DNA of 64,000 nucleotides from a virus. Taxonomy: Duplodnaviria; Caudoviricetes. Below are positions 11,244 to 54,411 of the stretch, in pieces. Both the position numbers and the translations under genes were made by a program. The number at the start of each line of letters is the position of its first letter. The stretch's first letter is position 1. Location of the stretch: the IMG/VR virus record IMGVR_UViG_3300025362_000477; one strand, written 5' to 3'. Under the pieces are notes generated by a model. That model was not told the DNA's origin, searched no databases, and worked only from the letters and a program-made list of their open reading frames with translations.

Positions 11244-11695
11244 TTATCTCAATTTCTACTGGTTCTTCAGAATCATCTAAAAATAAAACTCCTGTATCGG
11301 TAAGTTCAATTCGATTAGTTACCCATTCTTTCCAATCATCTATACCGACACAATCTTGTAACAATTCATAATGTTGCCGAATAGTAGATGAAGCAGCTTG
11401 TCGAATTAATTCTGGCCAATCAATACATTCCCAATCATCATAACATATATGTTCTAATTCAACTTCATATTTTTTATTTACTATAGCTTTAAATTTACAT
11501 AATTTTTTATCTTCTATCTTCTCTAATGGGCACCAATCAGGAAAAATCAACACCGATATGTTTTTTCGGTACATAAGTCAGTGTTGAATTTTCAGTTCTT
11601 GGTGCATCAACATGGCTACAATGATGTTCAATATAATAACAACAATCACATCCACAAGAATCTAATAATACAGTATATTTTCTTTTATCAGACAT
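11221..11695 (-). pseudogene. Cys-rich FPDWCPL-motif protein split by a +1 frameshift
   Basis: ATG 11695 has a strong RBS and reads MSDKRK...CGCDCC...C...KHIGVDFS* (stop 11537). Removing one T from the T5 run at 11542-46 gives ...VDFPDWCPLE and joins track ORF 11221..11574. Confidence 0.5.
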
Positions 11696-11927
11696 CTCCA
11701 TCTCCTAACAAATATGACTTCATCCATGATATGAATGGTCGTTCAAAATTCATAGTTGATAGAATCGTTACCTCTTCTTCATGATCTTTTAAAAACTTCT
11801 TAAGTGACTTATCAAAGAAATGAGCTGCATCAGTATCATCTCGAGTCTCATTAAATTGCTTTCTATATTCTACTACACATTCTTTTAATTTTTTTGTAAA
11901 TGCTAACGGGGTTTTCTGTTTAGGCAT
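11688..11927 (-). CDS. Hypothetical protein
   Basis: 79 aa, overlaps neighbouring genes in coupled fashion. Confidence 0.6.
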   Translation of the reverse strand: MPKQKTPLAFTKKLKECVVEYRKQFNETRDDTDAAHFFDKSLKKFLKDHEEEVTILSTMNFERPFISWMKSYLLGDGDV

Positions 11928-12216
11928 TCGGTATAGCTCCCACTGGTGTAATAAAACCTTTCATTAATTCCACATCAGCAATACCTTGAGCATCACCGGT
12001 CGAGCAACCCTTTTTTTCAAGTTCTAATACTCTTTCAGTATAGGTTAGTTTTTTATAACCATTCTTAATAACCGAAATGAGTTTCTCAACAATATCTGGA
12101 CATCTAACTTGATATTCTTCTTTTAGTTCTTTAATATACCACCCATCAATCATCCCTGTTTCTTTAATCTCTTCATTGATCCTATCAGCAACTTTCTCTT
12201 GTTCTTCATCTAACAT
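11920..12216 (-). CDS. Hypothetical protein
   Basis: 98 aa with AGGAG RBS. Confidence 0.6.
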   Translation of the reverse strand: MLDEEQEKVADRINEEIKETGMIDGWYIKELKEEYQVRCPDIVEKLISVIKNGYKKLTYTERVLELEKKGCSTGDAQGIADVELMKGFITPVGAIPNA

Positions 12217-12272: not shown

Positions 12273-13354
12273 TTATCTTCCGGATTTTCTTCGATTACAT
12301 TCTTTGCATAGCATCTGGCAATTCATATCCAATGTTTTCCCACCTTCATGCCATGGTGTAATATGATCCGCTTCCATCCCTGATATTTCAAAATGTTCAC
12401 CACATATAGGACATTTACCTAATTGTCTCTCATATGCCTTCTGTCTGATTGATTCCGAGAAAGCCCGAATATTCAAGTATTTATCATTCCCAGTTAATAG
12501 ATATTGATATATTCCACTTTTCTTCGTTACATCATCATCAAGGATTAACCTTCGAGTTTCACTCTCTAGATTATTAGTATCATATGACACATCTTTATAT
12601 TGATTATAAAGGATACCCCATTCCACACTTTTCATATCATTTCGATTTTTGATAAAGGTAGTAATTACCCATGTTATCACGGCCTGATAATATCTCCACA
12701 ATGCACCTGCGTTTTGGTCGTTTTGATGATTTGCCATATAAGCTTCTATGTTATTTTCTGATATCCATTTTATTGCGGTTTCAAGATAGTCCTGCCGAAT
12801 AACTGAACCAGACATATAATTACTACCTATATTGTAGGCTACACATCCCTGCTTACTGAAGTATCGTTTAGCATCTGAACACCACGGACCAGAATAAACC
12901 GCATTTCGCAGTTCTTGATTTGTTAGTTTCTCACCCGCAATATTTATTGTCTTAAACCAATCCAGTTTTTCACTATCTGTCCCACTACATAAATAGATCA
13001 TAATAGTATAGTTTAGAATTTGTTCCTTCTCATCATCTTGTAGATTATCGAAGTATCGTTCGTTAAATGAGAAGTCTCCGTTAACATACTGGCAGATCGA
13101 TATTGTTCTTTGTTGTCCATCAATCACTTCAAACTTGCCATCACCTCTAACAGCCCAATACATAAGGCTCAAAGGAAAGCTTTGGTAATCGTATTTATTA
13201 CTGAAGCTCTTTGTTTATCCTTATAAATAAACTCCCGCTGATATGCAGGTCTGATGTCTAAATTTCCACCGTATCCAATTACTCCGTTTTCATATAAATT
13301 AGTATACCCAGCCGTCAATTCACGAACTGTAATTTCTTTAAATTCAACATTCAT
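12273..13354 (-). pseudogene. DUF262/GmrS-like plus HNH endonuclease, frameshifted
   Basis: RPAYQREFIY in 13169..13354; IDGQQR and C-terminal CPIC...ADH...GG...NCQMLCKECNRRK in 12273..13172. One added G at AAA G(G)C TTT CCT TTG restores TKGFPLSLMYW. Confidence 0.8.
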
Positions 13355-14307
13355 TCTGTCACCTTTCTTTTAATAAATAAACGAGTATAAAGTTTCTTTC
13401 CATTCAATACACAACTGTCCATTTTTTTAACAGTCAATCGTATAGCATCAATCTCAGGGATATTATCGCCGCCCCTATCAGAATTTCCCAAAATCTCAAA
13501 TTGATCAGGATTTAATTTAGCAACAGGAACACCCATGATACCATTATAATCACAAGGGATATCTTTTATCCTGTTAACGTTAATAGCATCATAGTTATCA
13601 TACTTTGGATAGTCTTCTGGTGTATATTTTCTAAATAGGATAAGTTCTTCATGTCTCTGAATATAATCTAAATTAGTAAACCATACCGTATTACATGCAA
13701 CAAATATTTTCTCTAATGTTTCATCATTATCTTCAAATGGACAAAACATGGGGGGTACTTCAAATTTCACAGGAATAGTGGCACCAAACCATATCTTTTT
13801 ATCTTTGATTGAATTAAATACCCCCTTATATGTAATAGCAGGTGCACTTCCAATGATTAAGAACTTCTTATCATATTCAATCAATTGAGCAAAGTATTCT
13901 CTAAACAAAGAGAATGGTGGATTAGTCACTACTATATCAGCTTGCTTCAATATCTCAATACATTCAGGGTTACGAAAGTCTCCATCACCTTCTAACGGAT
14001 GCACTTCAATCTCATCGATATCTGGCATATGATTTCCATTTTTATCACCAGTATATTCCGCCCATATTGCAGGTTGACTTTCTGATACGTAATGGATCGA
14101 GATCAGTTTCTTTAATCCTAAAGAATCAAATTTGAGAGAAAAGTATTTGAAGAAGTTGCTTATATAAAGATTATCGCAATTGCATAAGATAGTTTTTCCT
14201 CTAAAATGATTCTTGTAGTGCATCAACTCTTTCTCTATATCAGTTAATTGTGTATAAAATTCATCATTCTTTTTCTTTCTCGCTTTATGTAAATTAGTAT
14301 TTTTCAT
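13351..14307 (-). CDS. Adenine-specific DNA methyltransferase, EcoRI family
   Basis: DEFYTQL, LCNCD, ADIVVTNPPFSLFREY. Start moved to ATG 14307 after a GGAGGAGG RBS. Confidence 0.88.
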   Translation of the reverse strand: MKNTNLHKARKKKNDEFYTQLTDIEKELMHYKNHFRGKTILCNCDNLYISNFFKYFSLKFDSLGLKKLISIHYVSESQPAIWAEYTGDKNGNHMPDIDEIEVHPLEGDGDFRNPECIEILKQADIVVTNPPFSLFREYFAQLIEYDKKFLIIGSAPAITYKGVFNSIKDKKIWFGATIPVKFEVPPMFCPFEDNDETLEKIFVACNTVWFTNLDYIQRHEELILFRKYTPEDYPKYDNYDAINVNRIKDIPCDYNGIMGVPVAKLNPDQFEILGNSDRGGDNIPEIDAIRLTVKKMDSCVLNGKKLYTRLFIKRKVTE

Positions 14308-14331
14308 AGTCCTCCTCCCCACACCCAACTT

Positions 14332-15159: not shown

Positions 15160-15423
15160 TTAAATTTCATCCTTCAGATTATTTGTAATTACATCTTCAA
15201 TTGTTACGTCTTTTAAACATACAGCTTGAGACATATCAATAGTAGCCGTCATAGAAGATGATGCTTTCCAATCATCCCAATATGACATACTTGTTCTTAT
15301 CTTATTTATTTCATCAGATGAAGTAACCCAATTTCTCCAATATATAATTTTAATTGTAACTGGGTCACATAAAAATTGAAGCTTTGGATATCTATCATCT
15401 ATCATTAATTTAAAATCTACCAT
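15160..15423 (-). CDS. Hypothetical protein
   Basis: 87 aa, overlaps the QueC-like stop. Confidence 0.6.
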   Translation of the reverse strand: MVDFKLMIDDRYPKLQFLCDPVTIKIIYWRNWVTSSDEINKIRTSMSYWDDWKASSSMTATIDMSQAVCLKDVTIEDVITNNLKDEI

Positions 15424-16316
15424 CTTTTAACCTCTTTCAATTTCTGTTTAAGAATTTCAATTCGGTCAGGTGGTAACAATATCCGATCTATAATATTATT
15501 AATATCTGGTTTCTTCTCAAACCCATCTTTTAAGTGCTGTGGTATATGAGGTACGTAATCTGGATCATCGACTTCATAGAAGTTACGATTAGTTTTTAAA
15601 CCAAGCATCTTTTCCGACCAATGAGAAAGCAAACCACTACCACACGCAGGTATGCCATCTTTAGCACAATTGCATGGTATTCCATTTACTACCTTAGCTC
15701 GATCACATGATATACATAAATCGAAAAGATCAAGAAATTTAAAATGATTAGCTAATACATATTGTTCAGTTTTCATAAGATTAGCTAAACAATATAACAT
15801 CGAAAATCGATCCCCAACCAATGATGCATATTTAGCCATACCTATACATGCATCACTAAAATATTTTGTATTATCCGGGTAACACGCAGACTCTGTTAGT
15901 TGATTCCATCCAGCACAAAAATAAACCTTTTTATAATTATGTTTCATAACTTCTGATTCTGCAAAAACCATCATGATAGTTTGAAATAAACCATTGCGCA
16001 TAGGATGCCAGGCAGCAGTTGTCTTTAATCCCAATTTTGTACCTGTGACAATTTTTGCATTTTCATTAGCCAGCATAGAAATAGATTCGACTTCCATTTC
16101 ATTATATAGATTTCTGACATCAAAAACCTTTAATGGAATATTTAAATGATTGCATATATTAGTGATTGCTAAAAATTCAGCTTCATCACTTCTAGTTCCA
16201 TATCGAAAATGACAAACAACCAAATTTTCATATCCAGCTAATTGTAATATTTTTAAAGTACATGTTGAATCTAATCCTGAACTACATGATACTAATACTA
16301 ATTCATTTTCTAACAT
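15417..16316 (-). CDS. queC: QueC-like ATP pyrophosphatase (7-cyano-7-deazaguanine synthase family)
   Basis: PP-loop SSGLDS, PMRN, YPDN, LMKTE, C-terminal Cys cluster CISCD...C.C...CGSG. Confidence 0.78.
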   Translation of the reverse strand: MLENELVLVSCSSGLDSTCTLKILQLAGYENLVVCHFRYGTRSDEAEFLAITNICNHLNIPLKVFDVRNLYNEMEVESISMLANENAKIVTGTKLGLKTTAAWHPMRNGLFQTIMMVFAESEVMKHNYKKVYFCAGWNQLTESACYPDNTKYFSDACIGMAKYASLVGDRFSMLYCLANLMKTEQYVLANHFKFLDLFDLCISCDRAKVVNGIPCNCAKDGIPACGSGLLSHWSEKMLGLKTNRNFYEVDDPDYVPHIPQHLKDGFEKKPDINNIIDRILLPPDRIEILKQKLKEVKRW

Positions 16317-17476
16317 TCTAACTCCTTCATTAATTGTTTAAATTCATTTATAATTTGATTTGGATTTTCCATCCAATCACATTTTTTAATCCGAAATATC
16401 TGATACCCTTTATTCATCAAATCACAATCTTTCTGATTATCTTTAAATTTACACCATTTTTGATTATGATGATCTTCATCAAATTCAATAATTAGTTTCA
16501 ATTCTTCAATCCGACCATCTGGAATATATCCAATTAATTGAACATTTCTAAGGATTTCAAATTTGGAATGAATCTGGATCTCATTTAAACATGGTCTTTC
16601 CATATCACCAACTCGACCACATAAAGTCTCACCATTTAATTTTTCATTCTCAATCATACGGATGAAGTTTTCCCGGTACATTTGTCTAGCTTCAGAAGTT
16701 TGGGAAAAATGCATACCAAAATGATCTATATTAGTTTGATGAATTTTTCTTTGAATTTCCTCTGATTGCGACGCATGTTCAAATCCATATCTTTCTAAAC
16801 ATGTATGTTTAACTTTTTCATATAATTCATCTGATGCAAATCCGGTGCCACCATAACGAGATATGTTTGTTTCTCTGATTCGTCCTAATATCTCATCAGA
16901 ATAACTAGAATGTTCTACGCCATATTTTTCTAAACATGTATGTTTATATTTATCTTTAAATTCTTTAGTTTGAACATAAAAATCAACACCATATCTCTCA
17001 TTGAATGTTGTAGATAATTTATCAACGACTATCTTTGATTTCATAGGATTATCAACACCATAATGATTCATCAATGTATTGATTCGTTTCTCTTTAACAA
17101 TTTCAGATTTTGAAACACATTCATTTGAACAGTATTGATTATAACCATAAGGAATAGATATAAATTTCGTTAATTGTCCACATATTTTACATTCTCCATC
17201 ACCTTTTGTTTTTAAGTATCTATCATAGTATTCTTTTAAAGAAATATCTTTATGATTTTTTATGATATGGAAAGATAAACCTTTCGGACCACAGAAATAT
17301 CGTAAACATATTTGACATTGTGATACATCCTGGATATATTTAGACAATTCATCAATATTATTAATTTTATGAGCTCTTACTAAATGATTCAATAAATCAG
17401 CAGAATTGAATTTCATAGCATCGCATAAGGGACAAGAAATCTCTCTAACATATTTAACAGGTCTAATGCTTTTCAC
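16310..17476 (-). mobile_element. Putative homing endonuclease: C2H2 zinc fingers, KYG repeats, C-terminal PD-(D/E)xK/DUF559-like nuclease
   Basis: CPLC..H..H and CQIC..H..H fingers, repeated (E/R)(K/R)YGV motifs, GYIPDGRIEELKLIIEFDEDHH. Confidence 0.7.
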
Positions 17477-17479
17477 AAA

Positions 17480-17689
17480 TTATTGACATTTTTTACTACA
17501 ACTTTTATTATATCCAATATTCATATTGAGGAATGTAGTAACCTTGCCACAATGACACATTCCTTCATTTTCTGTTTTTATAAATTTATCATAATAATCT
17601 TTAGATGATAATCTATGTTTCTGAAATACATGACTTGCTAAACCAATATAATTTTTACATTTCATTCTGCAAATTTGACATTCAATCAT
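17480..17689 (-). CDS. C2H2 zinc-finger fragment, in frame with the downstream endonuclease
   Basis: MIECQIC...H..H...CHCG...CSKKCQ*. Separated from 17476 by a single TAA and one codon. Confidence 0.55.
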   Translation of the reverse strand: MIECQICRMKCKNYIGLASHVFQKHRLSSKDYYDKFIKTENEGMCHCGKVTTFLNMNIGYNKSCSKKCQ

Positions 17690-17810
17690 AATATTTCTCC
17701 TCAAGTCGAGAAATAGCTTCATTGACTAATTCATAAATTTTTTTCTCAGTTTTAGCAGATAATATTTTAATTCTTTTTTGTGTCTCATCTGGTACCCCAA
17801 TTGTTTTCAT
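17682..17810 (-). CDS. Ribbon-helix-helix (CopG/Arc-like) protein, 42 aa
   Basis: Not in track. MKTIGVPDETQKRIKILSAKTEKKIYELVNEAISRLEEKYYD; AGGGG RBS; stop overlaps the next ATG. Confidence 0.65.
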   Translation of the reverse strand: MKTIGVPDETQKRIKILSAKTEKKIYELVNEAISRLEEKYYD

Positions 17811-17879: not shown

Positions 17880-18734
17880 TTAATCTAAACTATGAACAAT
17901 TCCATTTTTAGTATCAAACGTGGGGGTAATATATCGAGGAGTATATTTCTCCTTCCGCATAAATCCAGATTGAAGATCTATCTCTCTGATGGCGTGACCA
18001 TCTAGATAGTGATGATAAAAATTCTCCCAAATAAACATTCCATCCCGAGTTGCACCTAGATAATCATGGATGACTTCACCCAATACATCATTATCACTAT
18101 GTAGAAAAAATCCCAAACCTCGAATATATCCATGGCTAAGTTGCATATGATCATTAACCACATATAACATATCCTTATCTTCATCATACATGATAGCAGC
18201 AAAGCCACCACTTAGATATTCCATTGCATCCTTCATATTCCGACCTTTAGCAATATAAGCAGCGGCAATGGCTTCTGAATCAATATCAGTTTGAAAGACA
18301 TATTCTCTTTCTTCACATATCGAGTCTTCAGACCATTTCCGTAGATCGTTATATATCTTTTGAGATACAGCTCCATTATGAACTAATACTAATCCGGCTT
18401 CTTTATTAACTATTGGTTGCATAGTCCTAATAAGATCATCCTTATTAGTTGCTATTTCCGTTTCCGGTGCTGCTCTAGCAATAGCTATGACTAAATCCCC
18501 AATAGACATCTCTTCAAGAATATCTTGAACCTCGGCTGTAACCTCTGGATCAGAATATTTCTTTGATGTTCTAAATTGAGATCTAACCTTTCTAATACCT
18601 GTCTTTTTATCTTTTCTAATTAATGCTAGCCCGAAGCCATCCTGACCTCTTTTCTCGGCTCCCAAGAAAAGGGTATCAAGATGCTTATATTCAATTGTTG
18701 ATTCTCTAGCAAAGAATGCCGTTATCCCGCACAT
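17880..18734 (-). CDS. Class II (Ntn) glutamine amidotransferase
   Basis: N-terminal MCGI, RGQDGFG, VHNGAV, TDIDSE. Confidence 0.85.
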   Translation of the reverse strand: MCGITAFFARESTIEYKHLDTLFLGAEKRGQDGFGLALIRKDKKTGIRKVRSQFRTSKKYSDPEVTAEVQDILEEMSIGDLVIAIARAAPETEIATNKDDLIRTMQPIVNKEAGLVLVHNGAVSQKIYNDLRKWSEDSICEEREYVFQTDIDSEAIAAAYIAKGRNMKDAMEYLSGGFAAIMYDEDKDMLYVVNDHMQLSHGYIRGLGFFLHSDNDVLGEVIHDYLGATRDGMFIWENFYHHYLDGHAIREIDLQSGFMRKEKYTPRYITPTFDTKNGIVHSLD

Positions 18735-19126
18735 ATATTGCTCCTTATATTTACTTCATTTGTTGAATCTTCTCGTCGAAAACTATTCTCTAATATGTCA
18801 TAAAGTTCAGATCTCTCACCTTCAAGTTCATCTATTCTTTTATGACAATAATCTTGGATCTGCTCATCCGCTAAATCCCATGCTCCCTCTTCAGTTGAAC
18901 ACAATCTATCAGTAGTGTTAGTAACAAGATCATCAAATTTATCATATTTCAATCTACAATAGATTTTACCTTTATTATTTTTAGATAGAACTGATATTAT
19001 TGCAACTTTCAATACTAAATCATTATCTTTACCACCTAGATATCCTCTCATAGCCACCGAATCAGCAGCATAAAAGACATCACCTGGTTTAGGATTTAAC
19101 GGGTCTGGTAATTTTATATCATCCAT
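18722..19126 (-). CDS. Hypothetical protein
   Basis: 134 aa, coupled to neighbours. Confidence 0.6.
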   Translation of the reverse strand: MDDIKLPDPLNPKPGDVFYAADSVAMRGYLGGKDNDLVLKVAIISVLSKNNKGKIYCRLKYDKFDDLVTNTTDRLCSTEEGAWDLADEQIQDYCHKRIDELEGERSELYDILENSFRREDSTNEVNIRSNICAG

Positions 19127-19614
19127 TATGTACTCCCGTTCTTTCTTAGTTCAAATTCAGCTTTGTATTTTTCATTTAATGATATTTGTTCTTTCTCAAA
19201 ATCATATACTATTTTCATTTTCTCACTGTATGATGCATCCGGATCTATTACTGGTGATTCTCTAGTCGGTAGAGACCAGTGTGCATCTCCCCCATCACTG
19301 CAAAAAGTATATATTTCATATGTATCATCGAACATTTGATGAATGATATTTTCACGACCCTGTTCACTATAATCCCCACTCCAATGTGCCAATTTATAAG
19401 ATGGATACTCCTTCACAAATTCACGAAGCTGTTCCTCTTGATATTCCTCTAGATCAATATATGCTAAACCATCATCGATATTGGCATCTTCACTATCACA
19501 TAACAGACTAACTACCTTCTCAGTGAACTCTGGTTCTTTTTTAGAAGATGGATCATAAGCAATTATAAAAGATGCACTACTGCTATTACTAACAAAACTA
19601 TTCCTGGTCTTCAT
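19126..19614 (-). CDS. SNSSS-leader family protein 1
   Basis: Begins MKTRNSFVSNSSSASFII at ATG 19614 (GGAGGT RBS). Confidence 0.8.
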   Translation of the reverse strand: MKTRNSFVSNSSSASFIIAYDPSSKKEPEFTEKVVSLLCDSEDANIDDGLAYIDLEEYQEEQLREFVKEYPSYKLAHWSGDYSEQGRENIIHQMFDDTYEIYTFCSDGGDAHWSLPTRESPVIDPDASYSEKMKIVYDFEKEQISLNEKYKAEFELRKNGST

Positions 19615-20107
19615 TAACACCTCCATCTCTTGGAGGACCATCATGACCTATCATATAATCTTCAATTGAATTGAACACTTCATCTGCTGCTAATACTCTC
19701 TCAACTTCCACATGAATCATATTTAAAGTACTTATGGTCTTAAATTTAGATTTCTTATCTTCATCCATTGGAGTTAATGCCAATTCAGCAGTAATCTTAA
19801 CTAACACATCTTCAAACAATGGAATACTCATTCTTTTTGAATATACTTTTAAAGCTATCCGCTGAGATTCATTATCTTGAATTTCTGAGAAATCTGGAAT
19901 ATTGTGTTTATAATTAAACTCTCTCTCTAGCATAATCAAGCATGAATCACTATGTCTCTGAGCCCGTTCATGATCGAATATAACTTTCTTATTTTCATCT
20001 TTCAATTTCATAACAGCAAGAGTTGCTTCTCGTGCTATTTTAAAAGTTTCATGTTTTTTATCTAATGACATCTTGTATTCAATTAATCTTTTATCATAAT
20101 CAGTCAT
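19598..20107 (-). CDS. Hypothetical coiled-coil protein
   Basis: 169 aa with AAGGAG RBS; lacks the SNSSS leader. Confidence 0.65.
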   Translation of the reverse strand: MTDYDKRLIEYKMSLDKKHETFKIAREATLAVMKLKDENKKVIFDHERAQRHSDSCLIMLEREFNYKHNIPDFSEIQDNESQRIALKVYSKRMSIPLFEDVLVKITAELALTPMDEDKKSKFKTISTLNMIHVEVERVLAADEVFNSIEDYMIGHDGPPRDGGVNEDQE

Positions 20108-20142
20108 TATAACTCCTTTAATTTTTTTCGGGTTTTTAAAAA

Positions 20143-20200
20143 TGGTTGCCTACCTGAGATTACTCTCATCCACCTCTTCCCGTATAACACCTCGGCAACA
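20143..20200 (-). ncRNA. Candidate small structured RNA ending in CCA
   Basis: GC-richer 58-nt island: GTTGCC/GGCAAC closing stem, TGAGA-GTAA-TCTCA hairpin, 3' ...GGCAACCA. Confidence 0.3.
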
Positions 20201-20205
20201 TTTAT

Positions 20206-20622
20206 TTAACAATTATCGTTACTTACATATTGCATATAAGTCTGTGGCTCAATATCAGAAGCATCTTTTTTAAGAATCTCTGCTAGGGTTTCTCTAATTT
20301 CAATATTGGACTCTTCACTGAAATCAACACATTCCCATTGACCATCTTCTAGACCTGGGAATCGTCTACCGAGAACATACTCTTTCGGTTCATCATCGTC
20401 ATTATCAAAATAACAAATAAGATCCTGAAGTTTATATCCTTTACTATATGATGTATCGACACCCAAAGTTTTTAAAATGTTATGTACTTCAGTCTCGATC
20501 TCTTCCTCTGAATTAATCTCTTTACCAAATATCTCAATGAGTTGTTCTTTAGTCATCAAAATGCCTCTGATGATTGAACTACTTGAACTTGAGTTACTTA
20601 CCAATCCGTATCGAGTTTTCAA
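20206..20622 (-). CDS. SNSSS-leader family protein 2
   Basis: TTG start (TTGA overlap); MKTRYGLVSNSSSSSSII. Confidence 0.8.
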   Translation of the reverse strand: MKTRYGLVSNSSSSSSIIRGILMTKEQLIEIFGKEINSEEEIETEVHNILKTLGVDTSYSKGYKLQDLICYFDNDDDEPKEYVLGRRFPGLEDGQWECVDFSEESNIEIRETLAEILKKDASDIEPQTYMQYVSNDNC

Positions 20623-21017
20623 TAGTTTCCATCTCCTTCTATTACGTCAATAGTTTTATCTAATAATCCGTGCAAATCTGTGTTACATAGAAATGCTTCT
20701 TCTTCTTCATCTTCATCACTGAACGAACCACAGTATATAGTTTTACCTTCTTGTAAAGCTGCTATACATTTATCATATTCTTTTTTATAATAATCTTCTT
20801 GGGGATCATCATAATCATCGACTCCATAACGCTCTTCAAAATATTCCTTCAATTGTTTTGCATTGGTGATCTTTCCACTGACATCACCGCCATTATCAAC
20901 ATATTTATCGAGATCAACTTCAATCGTTATTTTACTTTTACCATTTAACTCTTTGGGAAGAGCTAAGATAAATGAACTACTTGAACTATTACTGACAAAT
21001 GATTCTCTAGTCTTCAT
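20619..21017 (-). CDS. SNSSS-leader family protein 3
   Basis: MKTRESFVSNSSSSSFIL. Confidence 0.82.
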   Translation of the reverse strand: MKTRESFVSNSSSSSFILALPKELNGKSKITIEVDLDKYVDNGGDVSGKITNAKQLKEYFEERYGVDDYDDPQEDYYKKEYDKCIAALQEGKTIYCGSFSDEDEEEEAFLCNTDLHGLLDKTIDVIEGDGNY

Positions 21018-21435
21018 TTTCAGCTTCCTTTTCTTTAGCTGTTTTAATCTTAACTACATGATCAAGGAATGCACTATATGTTGTATACTTATCTCTAATC
21101 TCATTGAGGATCTCACCATCATTCATACCATATTTCTCTTGCATGAATATTTTAGCATCCTCATCATCGAGTAGCTTCAATTGACAGAATGGACAGTATT
21201 TCGGATCCATTTCATATCCATTCTCTACCTCTAGAGCTTCATTAAATACTTCTATATCCTCTTCGTTCAGTTTATCAATACCAGCACATCCTTTATGCAA
21301 TATCCGACCGCAACATGAACATTCGAACATCTCTACCTCAAATAAGCCTTCATATACTGTTTCTGTTTCATTGCATATTGAACAGATAAAACTTGAACTT
21401 GAACTATTACTTACAAGTGATTTTCTTGTTTTCAT
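21007..21435 (-). CDS. SNSSS-leader family protein 4 (Cys-rich, zinc-finger-like body)
   Basis: ATG 21435 (ATGA overlap, GGAGG RBS); MKTRKSLVSNSSSSSFICSICNE...CSCCG..H..C...CPFC. Confidence 0.82.
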   Translation of the reverse strand: MKTRKSLVSNSSSSSFICSICNETETVYEGLFEVEMFECSCCGRILHKGCAGIDKLNEEDIEVFNEALEVENGYEMDPKYCPFCQLKLLDDEDAKIFMQEKYGMNDGEILNEIRDKYTTYSAFLDHVVKIKTAKEKEAENED

Positions 21436-21719
21436 GCTTTTCTTGCCTCCTGTTCTTTTTTCCATACTGCTGATTTATGATCTGAAAAATCTTTATATGT
21501 ACCATATTTAGATTTAATCTTTTCTAATATCTCTGCTTTAGTATGACCTTTCAGATCTTCAATTTGATCTAATAAGCAATTTATATTCTGACACCCCATT
21601 GATTTTTCATTATCATCTTCATCGCATAATAAATTAAAAATGTCATGGGGGAAAAATGCTTCTGCATCTCCAAAAGCATCAATGCATACTTTTTCACTTT
21701 CATTATAGAGATCTCTCAT
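21432..21719 (-). CDS. Leaderless paralogue of the family protein 4 C-terminus
   Basis: ATG 21719 (ATGA overlap). GHTKAEILEKIKSKYGTYKDFSDH aligns with GMNDGEILNEIRDKYTTYSAFLDH. Confidence 0.65.
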   Translation of the reverse strand: MRDLYNESEKVCIDAFGDAEAFFPHDIFNLLCDEDDNEKSMGCQNINCLLDQIEDLKGHTKAEILEKIKSKYGTYKDFSDHKSAVWKKEQEARKA

Positions 21720-22384
21720 GATCCAATAGACTCCCATTTTGTCAATATTCTATTATGATAAGTTTTCATATCCTCGATTGTATTATTTGGAAATAATTCC
21801 TTTATATGAAAGATGGCTTTATCATCAACGCTACCGATATGCCATTCTTTAATATCTTTAATTGGAATTCCATCTTTACAATTATAAATAGTAGCAATAG
21901 TACCATCTTTGAATTTCATTACCCATTGAGCATCAACTTTATATTGATCTGCGGTATCTGGTTCACCAAACCTCTCAACGATTTCCTGATATGAACAGTG
22001 GATATACGCCGTAAGACTAGTACCCATTGAAGAAATAGTTTCATCATCATTATGAGTAATATAATTTTTTTGAGAATCTACTCTTTTCTTATTATCAAAC
22101 AATCTAAACCATTGCATTCCATCAACATGAGGATCACAAAATATAAGTGTAATATCTTGTCCTTCATATATGTATTTTTGATAGAATCTCTGAGTATATA
22201 TCTCATCCTCATAAGTCCCAACGGAGAACTCTTGCTCACCATAAAGAATTATATCATCCACAACATCCCAATACATATCAGTTTTATCATCAAGAGGGCA
22301 GATAACCCAATCTTCAGTAAACCCAACATGATCATATATCGCCCGTAACGAAGACGTGTAATCATCAATTAATTTCATATTCAT
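21716..22384 (-). CDS. Hypothetical protein, apparently two fused phage domains
   Basis: 222 aa with AAGGA RBS; N- and C-terminal halves look like separate small domains. Confidence 0.6.
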   Translation of the reverse strand: MNMKLIDDYTSSLRAIYDHVGFTEDWVICPLDDKTDMYWDVVDDIILYGEQEFSVGTYEDEIYTQRFYQKYIYEGQDITLIFCDPHVDGMQWFRLFDNKKRVDSQKNYITHNDDETISSMGTSLTAYIHCSYQEIVERFGEPDTADQYKVDAQWVMKFKDGTIATIYNCKDGIPIKDIKEWHIGSVDDKAIFHIKELFPNNTIEDMKTYHNRILTKWESIGS

Positions 22385-28675: not shown

Positions 28676-29302
28676 TTAATCTTTAATCAAATTAAGGAAT
28701 TCAGCACGAGTTTGTGGCTGGGTGCGAAAACGACCACGCATCGCAGATGTTGCCATCTTAGATGTTTGATTTTTAACACCTCGAGCGGACATACACATAT
28801 GCTTTGCTTGGATGATCACACCAACTCCCAATGGAGCTAATTCATCCATTAAAGTATCAGCAATTTGGCTACACATCTTTTCCTGAATCTGGAATCGACG
28901 AGCAAACACCTCTACTAACCTAGCTAATTTTGATAAACCAACCACCTTCTTATCTGGAAGATATCCGATATCCACAGAACCAATAAACGGGATCATATGA
29001 TGTTCACAATGAGATACAAATGATATGTGTTTACATATCACAATCTCATCTGACTGATCACCAATATCATCTTCAAATACAGTTCCAAGAACTTTGGCTG
29101 GATCTTCTGTGTAACCACTAAAAAGTTCTAACCAGGACTTCACGACTCGATATGGAGTCTCAACCAAACCTTCTCGATCTGGATTTTCCCCAATCGTCAT
29201 TAATTGATTTCTAATAGATTGCATTGATCCAGGAAACATCTTTTCTAGTTCAATTTTTATTAATTTTTTATCTGTCATGGCTAATACTTCTTTATACGTC
29301 AT
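28676..29302 (-). CDS. folE: GTP cyclohydrolase I
   Basis: GLVETPYRV, SHCEHH, GLSKLARLV, RRFQIQE, HMCMSARG. Confidence 0.93.
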   Translation of the reverse strand: MTYKEVLAMTDKKLIKIELEKMFPGSMQSIRNQLMTIGENPDREGLVETPYRVVKSWLELFSGYTEDPAKVLGTVFEDDIGDQSDEIVICKHISFVSHCEHHMIPFIGSVDIGYLPDKKVVGLSKLARLVEVFARRFQIQEKMCSQIADTLMDELAPLGVGVIIQAKHMCMSARGVKNQTSKMATSAMRGRFRTQPQTRAEFLNLIKD

Positions 29303-50685: not shown

Positions 50686-51291
50686 CTATTCTTTTTCTAT
50701 CTCTACAGTAACCTCTTCCATAACTACATGGTGCCAAGGACAATATTTTTTACCATCAGCTCCAGCTACATAATAATTGAATAACCATGGTTTATCTCTT
50801 GGTCTATCATTACATTTAGGGCATTTATAATTAATACCTGGTTCTGCCTTGATATGACCTTTCTTGATTAATGGTTCATCGCCTCTCAAACTATGAAAGT
50901 CACCATCACTCATTCGTCCAATACATGAATCATCGTCACCATAATCTTCACCTCCACCCTGATGGATAACATATGTATATTTTGGCCAACATGAATCCCA
51001 ATCATGATTCCATGATGTTGAAATTAATATGTCATCACCATCAATACAGATATAAGTATCATAGTTACATGATGGGAATACAACTCCAGCTTCGCCAGAT
51101 TGTACATCTGCTAAATTACATAATATTTTTAATCTATCATTTTTCTTCTGTGCCTCATCTGTCATCTTACCAGTTTCGTCATCAGACATAACCAGTTTAT
51201 GCATAGCTAATGCTACTGCTTCAATAGAGCTCCCTCTGATAATGAAGCTACTAGATGAGCTATTACTCACAAAACCTCTCCTATCTTTCAT
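50686..51291 (-). CDS. SNSSS-leader family protein 5 (C-terminal zinc ribbon)
   Basis: MKDRRGFVSNSSSSSFII; CPKC...CPWH; GGAGG RBS. Confidence 0.82.
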   Translation of the reverse strand: MKDRRGFVSNSSSSSFIIRGSSIEAVALAMHKLVMSDDETGKMTDEAQKKNDRLKILCNLADVQSGEAGVVFPSCNYDTYICIDGDDILISTSWNHDWDSCWPKYTYVIHQGGGEDYGDDDSCIGRMSDGDFHSLRGDEPLIKKGHIKAEPGINYKCPKCNDRPRDKPWLFNYYVAGADGKKYCPWHHVVMEEVTVEIEKE

Positions 51292-51300
51292 TTTTCCTCC

Positions 51301-51978
51301 TTAATGATGGCTAATTTGTATATGTTCTAATCGATTAAATATACCACCATGTTCTAATAGAGTTTGACAATCATCACTATATTCAACTATGCCATACCAC
51401 CAATCTTTATGCTCGTCGATAAATTCCTGAGCTTTAATCTCTGCAACTTTGTCAACTTCGATCTGAATGATATCCATCATAGGCCATGTTTCAGCGTATT
51501 CAGCCTGCTCTAATATTTTCAATTCCTTTTGTATATCAGGGTCATCAATATCCCACCTGCGAGATATCCCTTTTGATTTTAAGAATTTTCCGATTTTCTT
51601 TTTGTGTTTTATTTCACTTTCAGCTTTGGCTTTAATAGCATCAATCATACCTTCACTGATGCTAAGAAAATCAATATCATTATTGGTATTATGATCACAT
51701 ATAAATTGCTTTTCTAATTTATATGCAGTCCAACCAATCTCAGTTGATAATAGTTTTGCTAATCTTTTTTTGGTAGTTTTGCAAACCCCTTTAAAGTCGC
51801 GATATACAGTATCTGAAATTTCATCATGAGACATTGATTTTTGATAACATTCTAATATTCCATCTTTACCATTAAACAATCTCTTTTTCATTTCTTTTAC
51901 TGATTGAGGCTTTTTTGGGAAAACTACTATAAATGAGCTACTTGAACTATTACTTACAAATCCTTCTCTATGTTTCAT
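51301..51978 (-). CDS. SNSSS-leader family protein 6
   Basis: MKHREGFVSNSSSSSFIV. Confidence 0.82.
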   Translation of the reverse strand: MKHREGFVSNSSSSSFIVVFPKKPQSVKEMKKRLFNGKDGILECYQKSMSHDEISDTVYRDFKGVCKTTKKRLAKLLSTEIGWTAYKLEKQFICDHNTNNDIDFLSISEGMIDAIKAKAESEIKHKKKIGKFLKSKGISRRWDIDDPDIQKELKILEQAEYAETWPMMDIIQIEVDKVAEIKAQEFIDEHKDWWYGIVEYSDDCQTLLEHGGIFNRLEHIQISHH

Positions 51979-51980
51979 TA

Positions 51981-52298
51981 TTAATGATCCATTTTAAAAC
52001 TGATTAATTTTTCATCATTACTCACTTGTAATGCGGTTAATAGATACGCCATAGATTCTGGAATATCACGGATATCATTATACATTGATGTCCACATCTG
52101 AGTAAGATATACTCCTGGTGCTCCATCCTTGGAGGTTTTAGATATAAGTTTATTTATCATACTTTGGGTTTCGCCATCGCCCCAAGAATCAAACATCTTG
52201 GTTAAAGTACTTTTAAGATCATTATTTTCATCCCCATACCAATAACATATAAAACTAGCACTACTTGAATTACTTACGAAACCATTTCTCTGTTTCAT
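51981..52298 (-). CDS. SNSSS-leader family protein 7
   Basis: ATG 52298 (ATGA overlap); MKQRNGFVSNSSSASFIC. Confidence 0.82.
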   Translation of the reverse strand: MKQRNGFVSNSSSASFICYWYGDENNDLKSTLTKMFDSWGDGETQSMINKLISKTSKDGAPGVYLTQMWTSMYNDIRDIPESMAYLLTALQVSNDEKLISFKMDH

Positions 52299-52651
52299 CT
52301 CAGACTCTCCTTGAATTCCCATTCCCAGTTCTTTGATTTTCCACCAGATCGTAGTATATAATCATATACCATACCGATAAAATCACCATCCTCATCTCCG
52401 AAAGAAATAGTTTTTTTACTATTCTTTGGAAATGTATAGTAGCATCCACGACCACCATTATTGATTCGTTCCTCTGCCGAAATCAATATCTGACCAAGAG
52501 TATAATCAGCATTATACTCTTGATTAAAATCTTTAACTAATTGTGGATTTTCTATTACAAAATCCGCAATAGTTAAAGGTCCATCAGATGTATTTTTGAT
52601 GACGAAGCTACTTGAACTTGAATTACTTACAAATCCATGTCTACTTTTCAT
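52295..52651 (-). CDS. SNSSS-leader family protein 8
   Basis: MKSRHGFVSNSSSSSFVI. Confidence 0.82.
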   Translation of the reverse strand: MKSRHGFVSNSSSSSFVIKNTSDGPLTIADFVIENPQLVKDFNQEYNADYTLGQILISAEERINNGGRGCYYTFPKNSKKTISFGDEDGDFIGMVYDYILRSGGKSKNWEWEFKESLR

Positions 52652-53083
52652 TTAACATCCTTCTTCTCGAATAATAATCAATCTGTTTTCTTTCTGCATG
52701 GAATCGATTACGTTAACTAACATATCATTATAGTTATCAACATAACATTTTACAAAAATCCAATTAGGATGATTATCCGAAACTTTTGTAATATCGTCTA
52801 TAAGTTTCTGTTTTTCATCAATTATAACTTTTGCTCTTTCTGTATTCCCTGAATCAATTGCCCATCTAGTATCATAAGTCTCATCAAGTTTTCGTATAAC
52901 TTCCGGAATACCTTCACAGTCTAATTCAGTATTATTAAATGTCCTTTCACACCGTTCAATGAATTCGAGTAAGTCAGGATCTTTTCTCCCACACGCAGGA
53001 CAAGCATCGGACTCATTAGATTCAAAAGCAATAATAAAACTACTTGAGCTTGAATTACTTACTAATGATTTTCGTATTTTCAT
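52652..53083 (-). CDS. SNSSS-leader family protein 9
   Basis: MKIRKSLVSNSSSSSFII; internal CPACG. Confidence 0.82.
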   Translation of the reverse strand: MKIRKSLVSNSSSSSFIIAFESNESDACPACGRKDPDLLEFIERCERTFNNTELDCEGIPEVIRKLDETYDTRWAIDSGNTERAKVIIDEKQKLIDDITKVSDNHPNWIFVKCYVDNYNDMLVNVIDSMQKENRLIIIREEGC

Positions 53084-53199: not shown

Positions 53200-54411
53200 C
53201 TATTCATTAATTACGGGAAATGTCGGACATTTTCTACACCCGTCAATCATCCCAGAAATCAATTCATTTCGAAAATTAGAAACAGTATCTGAATACCATA
53301 ATTCTTTAAGAAAATCATCAATAGCTAATACATCAACACATTCTTTATTAGGTTCACCTTCTGTAAAAGAACAATGCCAATATTCACCATAAACATTAAT
53401 ATAGGATGAGAAAATATCCGATTCACAAGATTCACTTGCTTCTATAAACTTTTTTGATACCTCTTTTGGGAGATCCATTCCTTTAACTGCTGCTTCAAAC
53501 TTTGGAGCACTACAACTATCAAAACCAAAATTAAATCCTTTATCCAAACAATATTTAACTAATTCAGCATATTGTGTTTTAGTAAGAGAATGAAAATGAC
53601 CGGCAGCTCTACCTTTCGGTTTCACTCCTAAAAATACAATTGCATGCATATCTTTTAGACGTTCATCATTCATCCGATCTTCAAGAACTTCATATACAAA
53701 TTTAAGAGTTTCTTGACTAACCATCAAATGAATATTTACTTGATCCATACCAAGAGAAGTAAACTTCTTAATAGCATTATAACATACATTTTTATCAGAT
53801 TCATACGCCGACACGGCTAGGGCCCCAGAAATTTTCGCAACCTTCTCAGCAATAGCATCAGTAAGATCAGCACCAGACAATGTGAAATTAGGAACAATCC
53901 CAATTTCACGGCAATATTCCATCATAGGAATGAAATCAGGATTCGTTTGAATCCCAGTAATACCAAATGCCACCTGAGTCAAAGTCCTTGGTATTTTATT
54001 AATAATTGTCTTAAAAGTTTCAAGAGTCATATTAGTTGCTGGGGCATTCGTATTATTTTTATAACAAAATTTACAATTTTCTCCTTTAATTTTAGGACAT
54101 CCATTAATTGAGATTTCAATATCAAGAATTTCTGGACCAATAGGTGAATACAATGGATCATCATCAATTGTCTTACCCCAACGTTGAAAATATCCAGTCT
54201 CTTTGATAAATATGTAATTGTAATCATATCCAATTACTAATTTAGCTCGACTTGAATCAACCATGATATACCATTGATCATTAATTAAAAATCGACGTCG
54301 ATCTACGAAAGCACCATTTTCTTTTTCATCTTTAGTAATTTGAGCCAATAAATTCAACTGCGGCTCATAGCTAATATTTTCTAACATTCTCTTCAAATCA
54401 AAGTGTGGCAT
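53200..54411 (-). CDS. Radical SAM enzyme with SPASM/twitch-like C-terminus
   Basis: CPKIKGENCKFC (CX7CX2C), VAFGITG, C-X12-G-X4-C (CESD...GEYWHC) and terminal CRKC. Confidence 0.85.
   Translation of the reverse strand: MPHFDLKRMLENISYEPQLNLLAQITKDEKENGAFVDRRRFLINDQWYIMVDSSRAKLVIGYDYNYIFIKETGYFQRWGKTIDDDPLYSPIGPEILDIEISINGCPKIKGENCKFCYKNNTNAPATNMTLETFKTIINKIPRTLTQVAFGITGIQTNPDFIPMMEYCREIGIVPNFTLSGADLTDAIAEKVAKISGALAVSAYESDKNVCYNAIKKFTSLGMDQVNIHLMVSQETLKFVYEVLEDRMNDERLKDMHAIVFLGVKPKGRAAGHFHSLTKTQYAELVKYCLDKGFNFGFDSCSAPKFEAAVKGMDLPKEVSKKFIEASESCESDIFSSYINVYGEYWHCSFTEGEPNKECVDVLAIDDFLKELWYSDTVSNFRNELISGMIDGCRKCPTFPVINE

What the first reader, a model, noticed from the sequence alone, without database searches (positions are those of the whole stretch)
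19126..21435. Second array of four SNSSS-leader proteins, 30 kb away, running into the GATase/QueC-like genes
Seen: four more copies (starts 21435, 21017, 20622 with TTG, 19614), nine in total. All are translationally coupled, and two upstream genes end in NED*/NEDQE* because ATGAAGAC of the leader is embedded in their last codons. Several bodies end with a beta-strand plus acidic turn (GSFSDED, ISFGDED, EYSDD, TFCSDGGD), hinting at remote paralogy. The genes continue co-directionally into a class II GATase and a QueC-like PP-loop enzyme. Established: QueC-family proteins in type IV CBASS and QatABCD have been reported to conjugate a deazaguanine to protein N-termini. Inference: each array sits beside a different candidate modifying enzyme, and the expansion suggests a diversifying effector or decoy family.
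Basis: partly seen in the sequence, partly recalled or inferred. Interest (0 to 1): 0.78.

Follow-up and report, generated by a model that had tools for sequence, protein, structure and literature searches.

The report
Serine-tagged phage proteins, radical-SAM clients
Four small phage genes near a QueC/amidotransferase pair carry a serine-rich 16-18-residue start found on thousands of phage proteins, and the evidence ties that tag to a radical-SAM enzyme encoded 30 kb away, not to the neighbouring QueC.

Summary
Four genes (starts 21435, 21017, 20622 TTG, 19614) begin MKTRx[S/G][L/F]VSNSSS[S/A]S. With five at 50686-53083 they make nine copies, all in this window.

The tag is not special to this phage. 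A profile of it hits 21,436 protein clusters, almost always at residue 1, with no Pfam family and no paper found. This scan had already seen the family in other genomes.

- **Radical-SAM link supported.** The conserved partner is the 403-aa radical-SAM/SPASM-type enzyme at 53200-54411. It lies within 8 kb of tag genes in 42 of 76 viral loci and elsewhere in the record in 5 of 5 others. A complex model puts residues 1-19 of an array-2 protein into its barrel (ipSAE 0.92, best control 0.02).
- **QueC link not supported as function.** GATase and QueC-like genes are absent from all 76 loci and from three complete tag-bearing genomes. They are always adjacent to each other, once fused. They fit a split Gat-QueC 7-deazaguanine enzyme. 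Tag genes lie near them in 7 of 10 lineage relatives, which I read as synteny.
- **Remote paralogy not supported.** Two bodies fall in subfamilies that recur across phages, and a third matches one by profile comparison. Different subfamilies show no detectable homology.

The chemistry is untested.

The parts
21007..21435 (-). Tagged protein 1 (142 aa): tag, then a Cys-rich cross-brace zinc finger (weakly PHD/C1-like), then a helical C-terminal module
   Evidence: Tag seen. The body belongs to a 27-32-member subfamily with invariant C18, C39, C81-P-x-C84. Pfam C1_1 9e-5 and PHD_4 2e-4 are both below cut-off. AF2 mean pLDDT is 84 with residues 1-9 under 50. Foldseek best hits are PHD fingers, E 0.02, prob 0.95.
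20619..21017 (-). Tagged protein 2 (132 aa), acidic and mostly helical body
   Evidence: Tag seen. The subfamily has 12-26 members across phages. AF2 mean pLDDT is 71.7 with tag residues 1-9 and 13-15 under 50. No fold match in the PDB. Its residues 1-19 dock in the radical-SAM barrel in the complex model.
20206..20622 (-). Tagged protein 3 (138 aa), TTG start in a TTGA overlap
   Evidence: The tag-trimmed body matches a 6-member subfamily at 97.8% hhalign probability.
19126..19614 (-). Tagged protein 4 (162 aa), body without detected relatives
   Evidence: It is a singleton by blastp, and hhalign probability is 6.4% or less to any subfamily.
19598..20107 (-). Untagged 169-aa gene that interrupts the array
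   Evidence: No family hit. No similarity to any tag subfamily.
21432..21737 (-). Untagged 101-aa gene upstream; paralogue of the C-terminal module of tagged protein 1
   Evidence: BLASTP 4e-6 against tagged protein 1. hhalign probability 91.8% to the zinc-finger subfamily.
18722..19126 (-). Untagged 134-aa gene between the array and the GATase
   Evidence: No family hit.
17880..18734 (-). Class II (Ntn) glutamine amidotransferase, stand-alone
   Evidence: PF13537 4e-12 with an MCGI start. It is paired with the QueC-like gene in all 10 contexts examined: directly adjacent in L087, L099 and L100, with one to three small or DUF7487 genes between in the others.
16310..17476 (-). DUF7487 + DUF559 endonuclease-like gene between GATase and QueC
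   Evidence: PF24308 5e-26 and PF04480 2.5e-7. A similar gene sits at the same place in L093, L094, L095 and L097, and is absent there in L087, L098, L100 and L101.
15417..16316 (-). QueC-family PP-loop enzyme (299 aa)
   Evidence: PF06508 2e-17 and TIGR00364 1e-15, the latter below cut-off. It carries SSGLDS, HPMRN, YPDN and a Cys-rich C-terminus, read from the sequence against the signature in PMC13329287. One relative is fused to a GATase domain (P0216).
53200..54411 (-). Radical-SAM/SPASM-type enzyme, the proposed partner of all nine tags; single copy in the record
   Evidence: Invariant C105, C113, C116 (CX7CX2C) plus C300, C329, C347, C395. Weak NCBIfam hits to rSAM-SPASM maturases. Atlas structural TM 0.66-0.74 to Radical_SAM/SPASM clusters. 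Synteny. Complex model. Single copy by tblastn.
50686..53083 (-). Array 1: five tagged genes directly downstream of the radical-SAM gene
28685..29221 (-). FolE (GTP cyclohydrolase I), first step of 7-deazaguanine synthesis
   Evidence: PF01227 1e-72. QueD lies outside the window at genome positions 37955-38365.

Best explanation
The four genes belong to a very large, unannotated family of phage proteins. The family is defined only by an N-terminal tag, M-K-x-R-x-G/S-F/L-V-S-N-S-S-S-S/A-S-F.

The tag is the handle by which one phage enzyme recognises many otherwise unrelated proteins. That enzyme is the radical-SAM/SPASM-type protein at 53200-54411. It would act in trans on this second array 30 kb away: the flexible N-terminus threads into the enzyme's barrel, where a residue of the Ser run is probably modified by radical chemistry.

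The adjacent GATase and QueC-like genes are a separate unit. I read them as a split Gat-QueC-type amidotransferase of 7-deazaguanine metabolism. They sit in the ligase/helicase replication module and lie next to tag genes through lineage synteny.

- **Shown:** the tag, its family size, its genomic linkage to the enzyme, the lack of general linkage to QueC/GATase, and a passing complex prediction.
- **Inferred:** physical binding in vivo, any covalent modification, its chemistry, and the role of the bodies.
For: **The family is large and the tag sits at residue 1.**
- A tag profile finds 21,436 cluster representatives at E <= 1e-3, nearly all matching from residue 1.
- Seventy-seven viral loci carry tandem arrays of up to 11 copies.

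**Linkage to the radical-SAM enzyme.**
- The enzyme is the only window gene widely shared with those loci. It is present within 8 kb, on the same strand, in 42 of 76.
- It is present elsewhere in the record in 5 of 5 loci checked that lacked it nearby, including RB16 at about 20 kb.
- One relative, G001, repeats the two-site layout of this phage.

**Complex model.**
- The model used the enzyme, 4Fe-4S, SAM and residues 1-45 of the 20619-21017 protein.
- ipSAE was 0.92 against a best control of 0.02. That mark was reached by 58 of 80 solved complexes and 2 of 110 mismatched pairs, and holds only roughly here because my own alignments and ligands were used.
- Only residues 1-19 of the partner touch the enzyme.
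- Of the enzyme family's 36 invariant residues, 23 lie in the predicted interface. About 5.4 would be expected by chance (p about 9e-13).
- AF2 leaves the first 9-15 residues of two array-2 proteins unstructured, as expected of a tail that is bound by something else.

**QueC/GATase as a separate unit.**
- They are paired in all 10 contexts examined and fused in P0216.
- FolE and QueD are present in the genome.
- They are absent from all 76 tag loci, and QueC is absent from three complete tag-bearing genomes.
Against: - No experiment shows binding or modification, and the complex score is a model's own confidence.
- The model may favour the conserved cavity for any flexible peptide that has an alignment, although both unrelated partner controls failed to dock.
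- An earlier check in this scan found that part of the claim fell for a sister form of the tag (note e1-127136).
- Tag genes do cluster with GATase-QueC in 7 of 10 relatives, so a lineage-specific functional tie is not excluded.
- QueE and a DpdA/TGT were not found in this 44%-complete record, so the target of the QueC pathway is unproven.
- In the zinc-finger subfamily, residues 13-17 of the tag are modelled as the first strand of the finger. Part of the tag can therefore be structural.
Confidence: 0.6

Rival explanations
1. One reading: the adjacent QueC-like enzyme, supplied by GATase, FolE and QueD, conjugates a 7-deazaguanine to the N-termini of the array-2 proteins, as Cap9 and QatC do in bacterial defence systems.
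For: - QueC-family enzymes are known to modify protein N-termini (10.1101/2025.04.06.647259; PMC13279940; PMC13329287).
- In this lineage tag genes lie within 10 kb of GATase-QueC in 7 of 10 loci.
- A tag gene follows QueC within about 20 nt or overlaps its end in L087, L095 and L097, and one lies between GATase and QueC in L098.
Against: - None of 76 tag loci elsewhere has either gene.
- Three complete genomes have tags and the radical SAM but no QueC family gene.
- GATase-QueC occurs without tags in L093, L094 and L101.
- The tags start M-K-x-R, and three of the four array-2 tags have no Gly at all. Known substrates need an N-terminal glycine motif (PMC13279940).
- No TGT/Cap10-like gene was found in the record. 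PADLOC gives only a generic QueC hit and no Qat or CBASS parts.
- A dedicated GATase partner, once fused, fits amide or amidine formation on a deazaguanine base as in phage 9g Gat-QueC (PMC6884629).
- The short tagged gene next to QueC in L087 and L095 is the orthologue of an array-1 gene here (51981-52298). Tag genes therefore move between the two sites.
Confidence: 0.06
2. The tag binds the radical-SAM enzyme, but the tagged proteins are adaptors rather than substrates. Each variable body would bring a different target (protein, nucleic acid or metabolite) to one shared catalytic subunit.
For: - One enzyme gene serves many bodies per genome.
- The bodies include ligand-binding-type modules such as a PHD-like zinc finger.
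- The interface prediction shows binding only, not chemistry.
Against: - The tag is placed inside the barrel, against invariant residues and next to the cluster and auxiliary-Cys region. That is where radical-SAM enzymes hold substrates; I take this from general knowledge of SPASM enzymes.
- An occupied active site would block any other substrate.
Confidence: 0.14
3. The tag has nothing to do with the enzyme's chemistry. It would be a sorting, degradation or assembly signal (for example capsid targeting or a degron) or a shared structural strand, and the gene linkage would reflect co-regulation in an early-gene region.
For: - Conserved N-terminal peptides on unrelated phage proteins are known as capsid-targeting sequences in T4 (my knowledge).
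- Residues 13-17 form a strand in one model.
- The whole region has no terminators and looks like one long early transcription unit.
Against: - Genome-level co-occurrence with one enzyme family is very tight (42 of 76 nearby, plus 5 of 5 elsewhere in the record).
- The docking prediction is specific, with a control of 0.01 when the enzyme was replaced.
- The enzyme's invariant residues coincide with the tag contact surface.
Confidence: 0.15

Closest known systems
RiPP systems with one radical-SAM/SPASM or twitch maturase and several precursors that share a recognition sequence (SkfB, AlbA, SuiB, CteB, PqqE, MftC)
   Same: An Fe-S radical-SAM enzyme with auxiliary-cluster cysteines is encoded beside several genes that share one short conserved peptide. 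The peptide is predicted to enter the barrel.
   Different: - The clients are 105-225-aa proteins with folded bodies, not short peptides.
- The conserved piece is the extreme N-terminus, and it probably contains the target itself.
- No leader protease or exporter is present.
- The cluster motif is CX7CX2C.
- Arrays can lie 20-35 kb from the enzyme.
- The system is viral.
Anaerobic sulfatase-maturating enzymes (anSME/AtsB) and BtrN, radical-SAM dehydrogenases with auxiliary clusters
   Same: - These radical-SAM enzymes act on a Ser or Cys of a full-length protein (anSME; my knowledge).
- BtrN is the best genuine solved-structure sequence hit (E 5e-4), above SkfB (0.015). Higher-scoring PPR-repeat hits are spurious sums of sub-threshold repeats.
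   Different: - The BtrN match covers only the cluster-binding region.
- The sulfatase motif C/S-x-P-x-R is absent from the tag.
- No sulfatase-like bodies are present.
- Formylglycine formation here is only a conjecture.
FxSxx-COOH peptide systems with a radical-SAM/SPASM enzyme in vWA-MoxR (VMAP) conflict systems (Kaur, Burroughs, Iyer, Aravind 2020, PMC7159879)
   Same: A radical-SAM/SPASM gene lies beside rapidly varying proteins that keep one short conserved Phe/Ser-containing peptide. In RB16-type phages the tagged genes flank a vWA protein.
   Different: - There the conserved peptide is C-terminal and is released by a metallopeptidase.
- Those systems are bacterial and include AP-ATPase and TIR parts, none of which is present here.
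- NCBIfam gave no FxsB hit for the window enzyme.
QueC-family protein deazaguanylation (Cap9/Cap10 of type IV CBASS; QatB-QatC)
   Same: A PF06508 enzyme is encoded next to proteins that have a flexible N-terminus.
   Different: - No Cap10/TGT, CD-NTase or QatA/B/D genes are present.
- The substrate's N-terminal glycine motif is absent.
- The enzyme is paired with a GATase.
- There is no general co-occurrence with the tag.
Phage Gat-QueC of the 7-deazaguanine DNA-modification pathway (phage 9g; Hutinet et al. 2019, PMC6884629)
   Same: A class II GATase and a QueC-family enzyme work as one unit (paired in all 10 contexts, fused in one relative), with FolE and QueD in the genome.
   Different: - Here they are two genes, often separated by an endonuclease-like gene.
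- QueE and DpdA were not found in the incomplete record.
- Several canonical QueC motif residues are substituted (SSGLDS, YGT..., YPDN).

Membership tests
Serine-tag phage protein family (N-terminus as in phrog_7397; no Pfam family) | Tag at residue 1 with K2, R4, V8, S9-N10-S11-S12-S13, S15 and an aromatic at 16 | tested here: met
   All four genes match. F16 is S in the 20622 copy. The profile scores the 20619-21017 protein (P0001) at 55 bits against the 1.84-billion-protein library.
Serine-tag phage protein family (N-terminus as in phrog_7397; no Pfam family) | The same genome encodes the CX7CX2C radical-SAM/SPASM-type enzyme | tested here: met
   A single copy lies at 53200-54411. The same co-occurrence holds in 42 of 76 loci nearby and in 5 of 5 other records.
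Serine-tag phage protein family (N-terminus as in phrog_7397; no Pfam family) | The body belongs to one of the recurrent subfamilies | tested here: inconclusive
   Three of four do: zinc finger, the 20619-type, and cluster 11 by hhalign at 97.8%. The 19126-19614 body is an orphan.
RiPP-type radical-SAM/SPASM maturase system | A radical-SAM core with a three-Cys cluster motif and a SPASM/twitch auxiliary Cys domain | tested here: met
   Invariant C105, C113, C116 and C300, C329, C347, C395. Hits to TIGR04317, NirJ2 and MftC are all far below cut-off. PF13186 scores 0.073. Atlas TM is 0.66-0.74 to Radical_SAM/SPASM clusters. The motif spacing is CX7CX2C, not CX3CX2C.
RiPP-type radical-SAM/SPASM maturase system | Short precursor peptides with a leader that is removed and a modified core | tested here: not met
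   The clients are 132-162 aa here, with modelled folded bodies. No protease or exporter gene is conserved beside the arrays.
RiPP-type radical-SAM/SPASM maturase system | The enzyme binds the conserved peptide | tested here: met
   In silico only: ipSAE 0.92 against a best control of 0.02, with partner residues 1-19 in contact.
RiPP-type radical-SAM/SPASM maturase system | A covalent modification of the peptide | not testable with these tools
   This needs mass spectrometry after co-expression.
QueC-family protein deazaguanylation systems (Cap9/Cap10, QatABCD) | A QueC-family ATP-dependent enzyme | tested here: met
   PF06508 2e-17.
QueC-family protein deazaguanylation systems (Cap9/Cap10, QatABCD) | Partner genes: TGT-like Cap10 plus CD-NTase, or QatA, QatB and QatD | tested here: not met
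   PF01702 gives no hit in the record. PADLOC gives only a generic QueC hit and nothing for the neighbouring genes. The record is 44% complete.
QueC-family protein deazaguanylation systems (Cap9/Cap10, QatABCD) | A substrate with an unstructured N-terminus bearing an N-terminal glycine motif | tested here: not met
   The tail is unstructured in the models. It begins M-K-T-R, and the only Gly position (6) is Ser in three of the four. The criterion comes from PMC13279940 and PMC13329287.
QueC-family protein deazaguanylation systems (Cap9/Cap10, QatABCD) | Enzyme and substrate genes co-occur across genomes | tested here: not met
   None of 76 tag loci has the enzyme. Three of four complete tag-bearing genomes lack any QueC, and the fourth has only a weak N-terminal PP-loop-type match. 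Co-occurrence is 7 of 10 within this one lineage only.
Phage 7-deazaguanine (Gat-QueC type) pathway | A GATase and a QueC acting as one unit | tested here: met
   Paired in all 10 contexts. A fused form is P0216.
Phage 7-deazaguanine (Gat-QueC type) pathway | FolE, QueD and QueE present to make the CDG/preQ0 precursor | tested here: inconclusive
   FolE and QueD are found. No PF04055-type QueE is found in the 44%-complete record.
Phage 7-deazaguanine (Gat-QueC type) pathway | A DpdA transglycosylase to insert the base into DNA | tested here: inconclusive
   There is no PF01702 hit in this record or in relative G001, and both are fragments. The 230-kb contig that carries the same genes could not be searched.

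The most novel reading that the evidence does not exclude
Large phages encode a protein-scale analogue of RiPP maturation. One radical-SAM/SPASM enzyme would recognise an invariant serine-rich N-terminal tag and covalently alter it, for example by oxidising, epimerising or cross-linking a Ser. It would do this on many unrelated proteins, including genes dispersed 30 kb away such as this array. That would make a viral post-translational 'tag and modify' system acting on thousands of protein families.
Probability: 0.4. Interest if true: 0.85.

Novelty: new variant of a known kind. Interest (0 to 1): 0.6.

Why it matters
If the tag is a radical-SAM modification site, more than 21,000 clusters of 'hypothetical' phage proteins share one undescribed post-translational step. 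The step could be tested directly in E. coli and Klebsiella phages of the RB16, RB43 and KP27 types.

This array adds two points. The enzyme's clients need not be adjacent to it. And neighbourhood alone can suggest the wrong enzyme, here QueC.

Separately, the GATase/QueC pair looks like a split Gat-QueC. That predicts a 7-deazaguanine base in this salt-lake phage's nucleic acid.

Tried and rejected
- **Close DNA or protein matches in GenBank phages.** Searches for the region and for two tagged proteins found none. The low-complexity filter and the divergence of the bodies explain this.
- **Word-index homologue search** for the 20619-21017 protein returned only itself.
- **Family libraries.** Pfam, NCBIfam and PADLOC gave nothing for the tagged bodies beyond weak zinc-finger hits.
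- **Literature.** A search for the tag string found nothing relevant.
- **Shared fold (HAD-, Toprim- or vWA-like strand plus acidic loop).** I rejected this. hhalign between tag-trimmed subfamilies gave at most 40% for zinc-ribbon pieces and mostly under 7%, against a reversed-control maximum of 2.7%. The motif HMM reached at most 8.6 bits. AF2 models show the first 9 or more tag residues disordered rather than forming a core strand.
- **Fold searches.** Foldseek of the 132-aa model found nothing, and the Atlas look-up was uninformative.
- **Acidic bodies as a DNA-mimic signal.** I rejected this because untagged neighbours are also acidic, pI 4.6-5.3.
- **Radical SAM as a missing QueE.** I rejected this because the enzyme occurs in phages that have no QueC gene.
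- **Single-protein searches of viral contigs** with QueC and GATase found zero and one locus. Contexts were obtained through the look-up of encoding contigs instead.
- **Promoter and terminator scan** was at chance level.


Full report
**What is there**

On the minus strand, four genes start at 21435, 21017, 20622 (TTG) and 19614 with M-K-T-R-x-[S/G]-[L/F]-V-S-N-S-S-S-[S/A]-S. Five more copies lie at 50686-53083. A six-frame scan of the whole 141.5-kb record finds no others.

Ser codons at tag positions 11, 12, 13 and 15 switch between AGY and TCN, so the constraint is on the peptide.

The 'array' is interrupted by an untagged 169-aa gene (19598-20107). It is preceded by an untagged 101-aa gene that is a paralogue of the C-terminal module of the first tagged protein.

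Downstream, still co-directional, lie:
- a 134-aa gene;
- a class II GATase (17880-18734);
- two small ORFs;
- a DUF7487/DUF559 endonuclease-like gene (16310-17476);
- a QueC-family gene (15417-16316).

**The tag marks a very large family**

A 32-column profile of the nine N-termini hits 21,436 representatives of 50%-identity clusters at E <= 1e-3. Almost all match from residue 1.

In IMG/VR the pattern gave 77 loci with tandem arrays of up to 11 copies. They include isolates of the RB16, RB43 and KP27 type, where the proteins are annotated 'hypothetical'.

There is no Pfam or NCBIfam family, and PHROG 7397 is 'unknown function'. I found no paper that holds the motif.

Earlier follow-ups of this same scan had already met the family in other genomes and reached the radical-SAM reading. 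I reached the linkage independently, before reading those notes. It is still a repeat within the scan, not independent evidence.

**The bodies**

After trimming the tag, the bodies fall into subfamilies that recur across phages:
- 21007-21435 belongs to a zinc-finger subfamily with invariant C18, C39 and C81-P-x-C84. AF2 pLDDT is 84. Its best structural neighbours are PHD fingers, at weak significance, which agrees with sub-threshold Pfam C1/PHD hits.
- 20619-21017 belongs to a helical acidic subfamily with no fold match.
- 20206-20622 joins a six-member subfamily at 97.8% hhalign probability.
- 19126-19614 is an orphan.

Between subfamilies, profile-profile probabilities are mostly under 7% against a reversed-control maximum of 2.7%. 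The 'strand plus acidic turn' motif gives only a faint enrichment. I therefore do not accept remote paralogy of the bodies.

Their acidity (pI 4.2-4.3) is shared by untagged neighbours and carries no signal.

**Which enzyme goes with the tag**

I ran tblastn of every window ORF against the 76 tag loci. One gene stood out, the 403-aa protein at 53200-54411. It is present in 42 loci at up to 62% identity, on the same strand and usually just upstream of the array.

Five records that lacked it within 8 kb all have it elsewhere. RB16 has it about 20 kb away. Relative G001 has tag genes both beside the enzyme and, about 35 kb away, around GATase-QueC, the same two-site layout as here.

The enzyme family has these features:
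- invariant C105, C113 and C116 (CX7CX2C), plus four more invariant Cys;
- weak matches to rSAM-SPASM maturases;
- BtrN and SkfB as the best genuine solved-structure hits by sequence;
- Atlas structural neighbours that are Radical_SAM/SPASM clusters, at TM 0.66-0.74.

It is single-copy in this record.

**Docking test**

I modelled the enzyme with 4Fe-4S, SAM and residues 1-45 of the array-2 protein 20619-21017. The score was ipSAE 0.92 (three runs: 0.90-0.93) against 0.02 for the best of three controls.

That mark was reached by 58 of 80 solved complexes and 2 of 110 mismatched pairs. The counts hold only roughly here, because I used my own alignments and ligands rode along.

Only residues 1-19 of the partner touch the enzyme. 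Of the enzyme family's 36 invariant residues, 23 lie among the 60 interface residues, where 5.4 would be expected (p about 9e-13). This supports binding of an array-2 tag by the distant enzyme. It does not show binding, and it says nothing about chemistry.

**GATase and QueC**

Neither gene has a homologue in any of the 76 tag loci. Of four complete tag-bearing genomes, three have no QueC-family gene.

The QueC-like protein belongs to a clade of 295-325-aa metagenomic proteins. One member is fused to a GATase domain and three contain inteins. In ten contexts GATase and QueC always travel together, within a ligase-to-PIF1-helicase module.

FolE and QueD are in the genome. This fits a split Gat-QueC of 7-deazaguanine metabolism, as in phage 9g, where Gat-QueC with DpdA puts dG+ into DNA (PMC6884629). 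QueE and DpdA were not found in this 44%-complete record, so the final target (DNA, tRNA or something else) is open.

Against a Cap9/QatC-like role:
- known substrates need an N-terminal glycine motif, and CBASS also needs the TGT-like Cap10;
- the tags start M-K-T-R;
- no such partner genes are seen.

Within this lineage, tag genes lie within 10 kb of GATase-QueC in 7 of 10 loci. In some they follow QueC's stop closely, and in one a tag gene lies between the two genes.

Roughly a third of this genome lies within 10 kb of a tag gene, and the loci are phylogenetically related, so the excess is modest. Three further observations argue for synteny:
- In L097, the closest relative, the order is GATase, endonuclease-like gene, QueC, tag, tag, a small gene, then the radical-SAM enzyme.
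- The short tagged gene beside QueC in L087 and L095 is the orthologue of an array-1 gene here.
- Tag genes thus shuffle around a conserved replication module in which the radical-SAM unit once sat, or in some relatives still sits, next to QueC.

I read the adjacency as synteny, and give about 6% to a real QueC-tag link.

**Verdict**

- The QueC/GATase interpretation is not supported, but the general idea of a leader served by a neighbouring modifying enzyme is supported, with the radical SAM as that enzyme for both arrays.
- The family appears undescribed in print but is already known to this scan.
- Binding is supported in silico. Modification, its chemistry and the function of the bodies remain inference.

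Noticed in passing
window 16310-17722; L093, L094, L095, L097, L099: An endonuclease-like gene (DUF7487 + DUF559), preceded by a small zinc-finger ORF, sits between GATase and QueC. A similar gene sits there in four relatives and upstream of the pair in L099; it is absent there in L087, L098, L100 and L101. The clade also has one fused GATase-QueC (P0216) and three intein-bearing QueC-likes (P0186, P0192, P0209). The pair looks like a hot spot for selfish elements, possibly a fractured Gat-QueC.
   Followed up: partly
window 12273-14328; L093 11224-13265; L094 8439-10480: The EcoRI-type adenine methyltransferase and the following GmrSD-N/HNH-like gene are 78-79% identical to L093 and L094. The adjacent QueC and GATase are only 53-61% identical. 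This suggests a recently exchanged DNA-modification/nuclease cassette.
   Followed up: no
window 21432-21737: This untagged 101-aa gene is a paralogue of the C-terminal helical module of the zinc-finger tagged protein (BLASTP 4e-6; hhalign 91.8%). It is a tag-less relative sitting at the head of the array.
   Followed up: yes
L020, L048, L051; G005 (L092) 10033-10539 and 11530-12042: In several phages the tag-associated radical-SAM gene matches in two pieces about 1 kb or more apart. This suggests an inserted intron, intein or endonuclease gene.
   Followed up: no
L097 about 3540-3600: A tag-bearing reading frame is broken by in-frame stops right after the start and after the tag. It looks like a decaying family member.
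   Followed up: no
L095 11337-12326: A canonical CX3CX2C radical-SAM gene (329 aa, with a Cys/His-rich C-terminus) follows the QueC-adjacent tag gene. It is unrelated to the tag-type enzyme and has no counterpart in the window's genome.
   Followed up: no
L049 (phage RB16) 8001-12391: Two tagged genes flank a 739-aa vWA/MIDAS protein. In bacteria, FxSxx-peptide radical-SAM/SPASM units are tied to vWA-MoxR systems (PMC7159879). I did not examine whether there is an evolutionary link.
   Followed up: no
window tags at 21435, 21017, 19614; L087, L095, L099: Tags of this phage lineage often have Ser or Ala instead of the otherwise 98%-conserved Gly at position 6, and Leu instead of Phe at position 7. 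This is a lineage-specific variant of the tag.
   Followed up: partly
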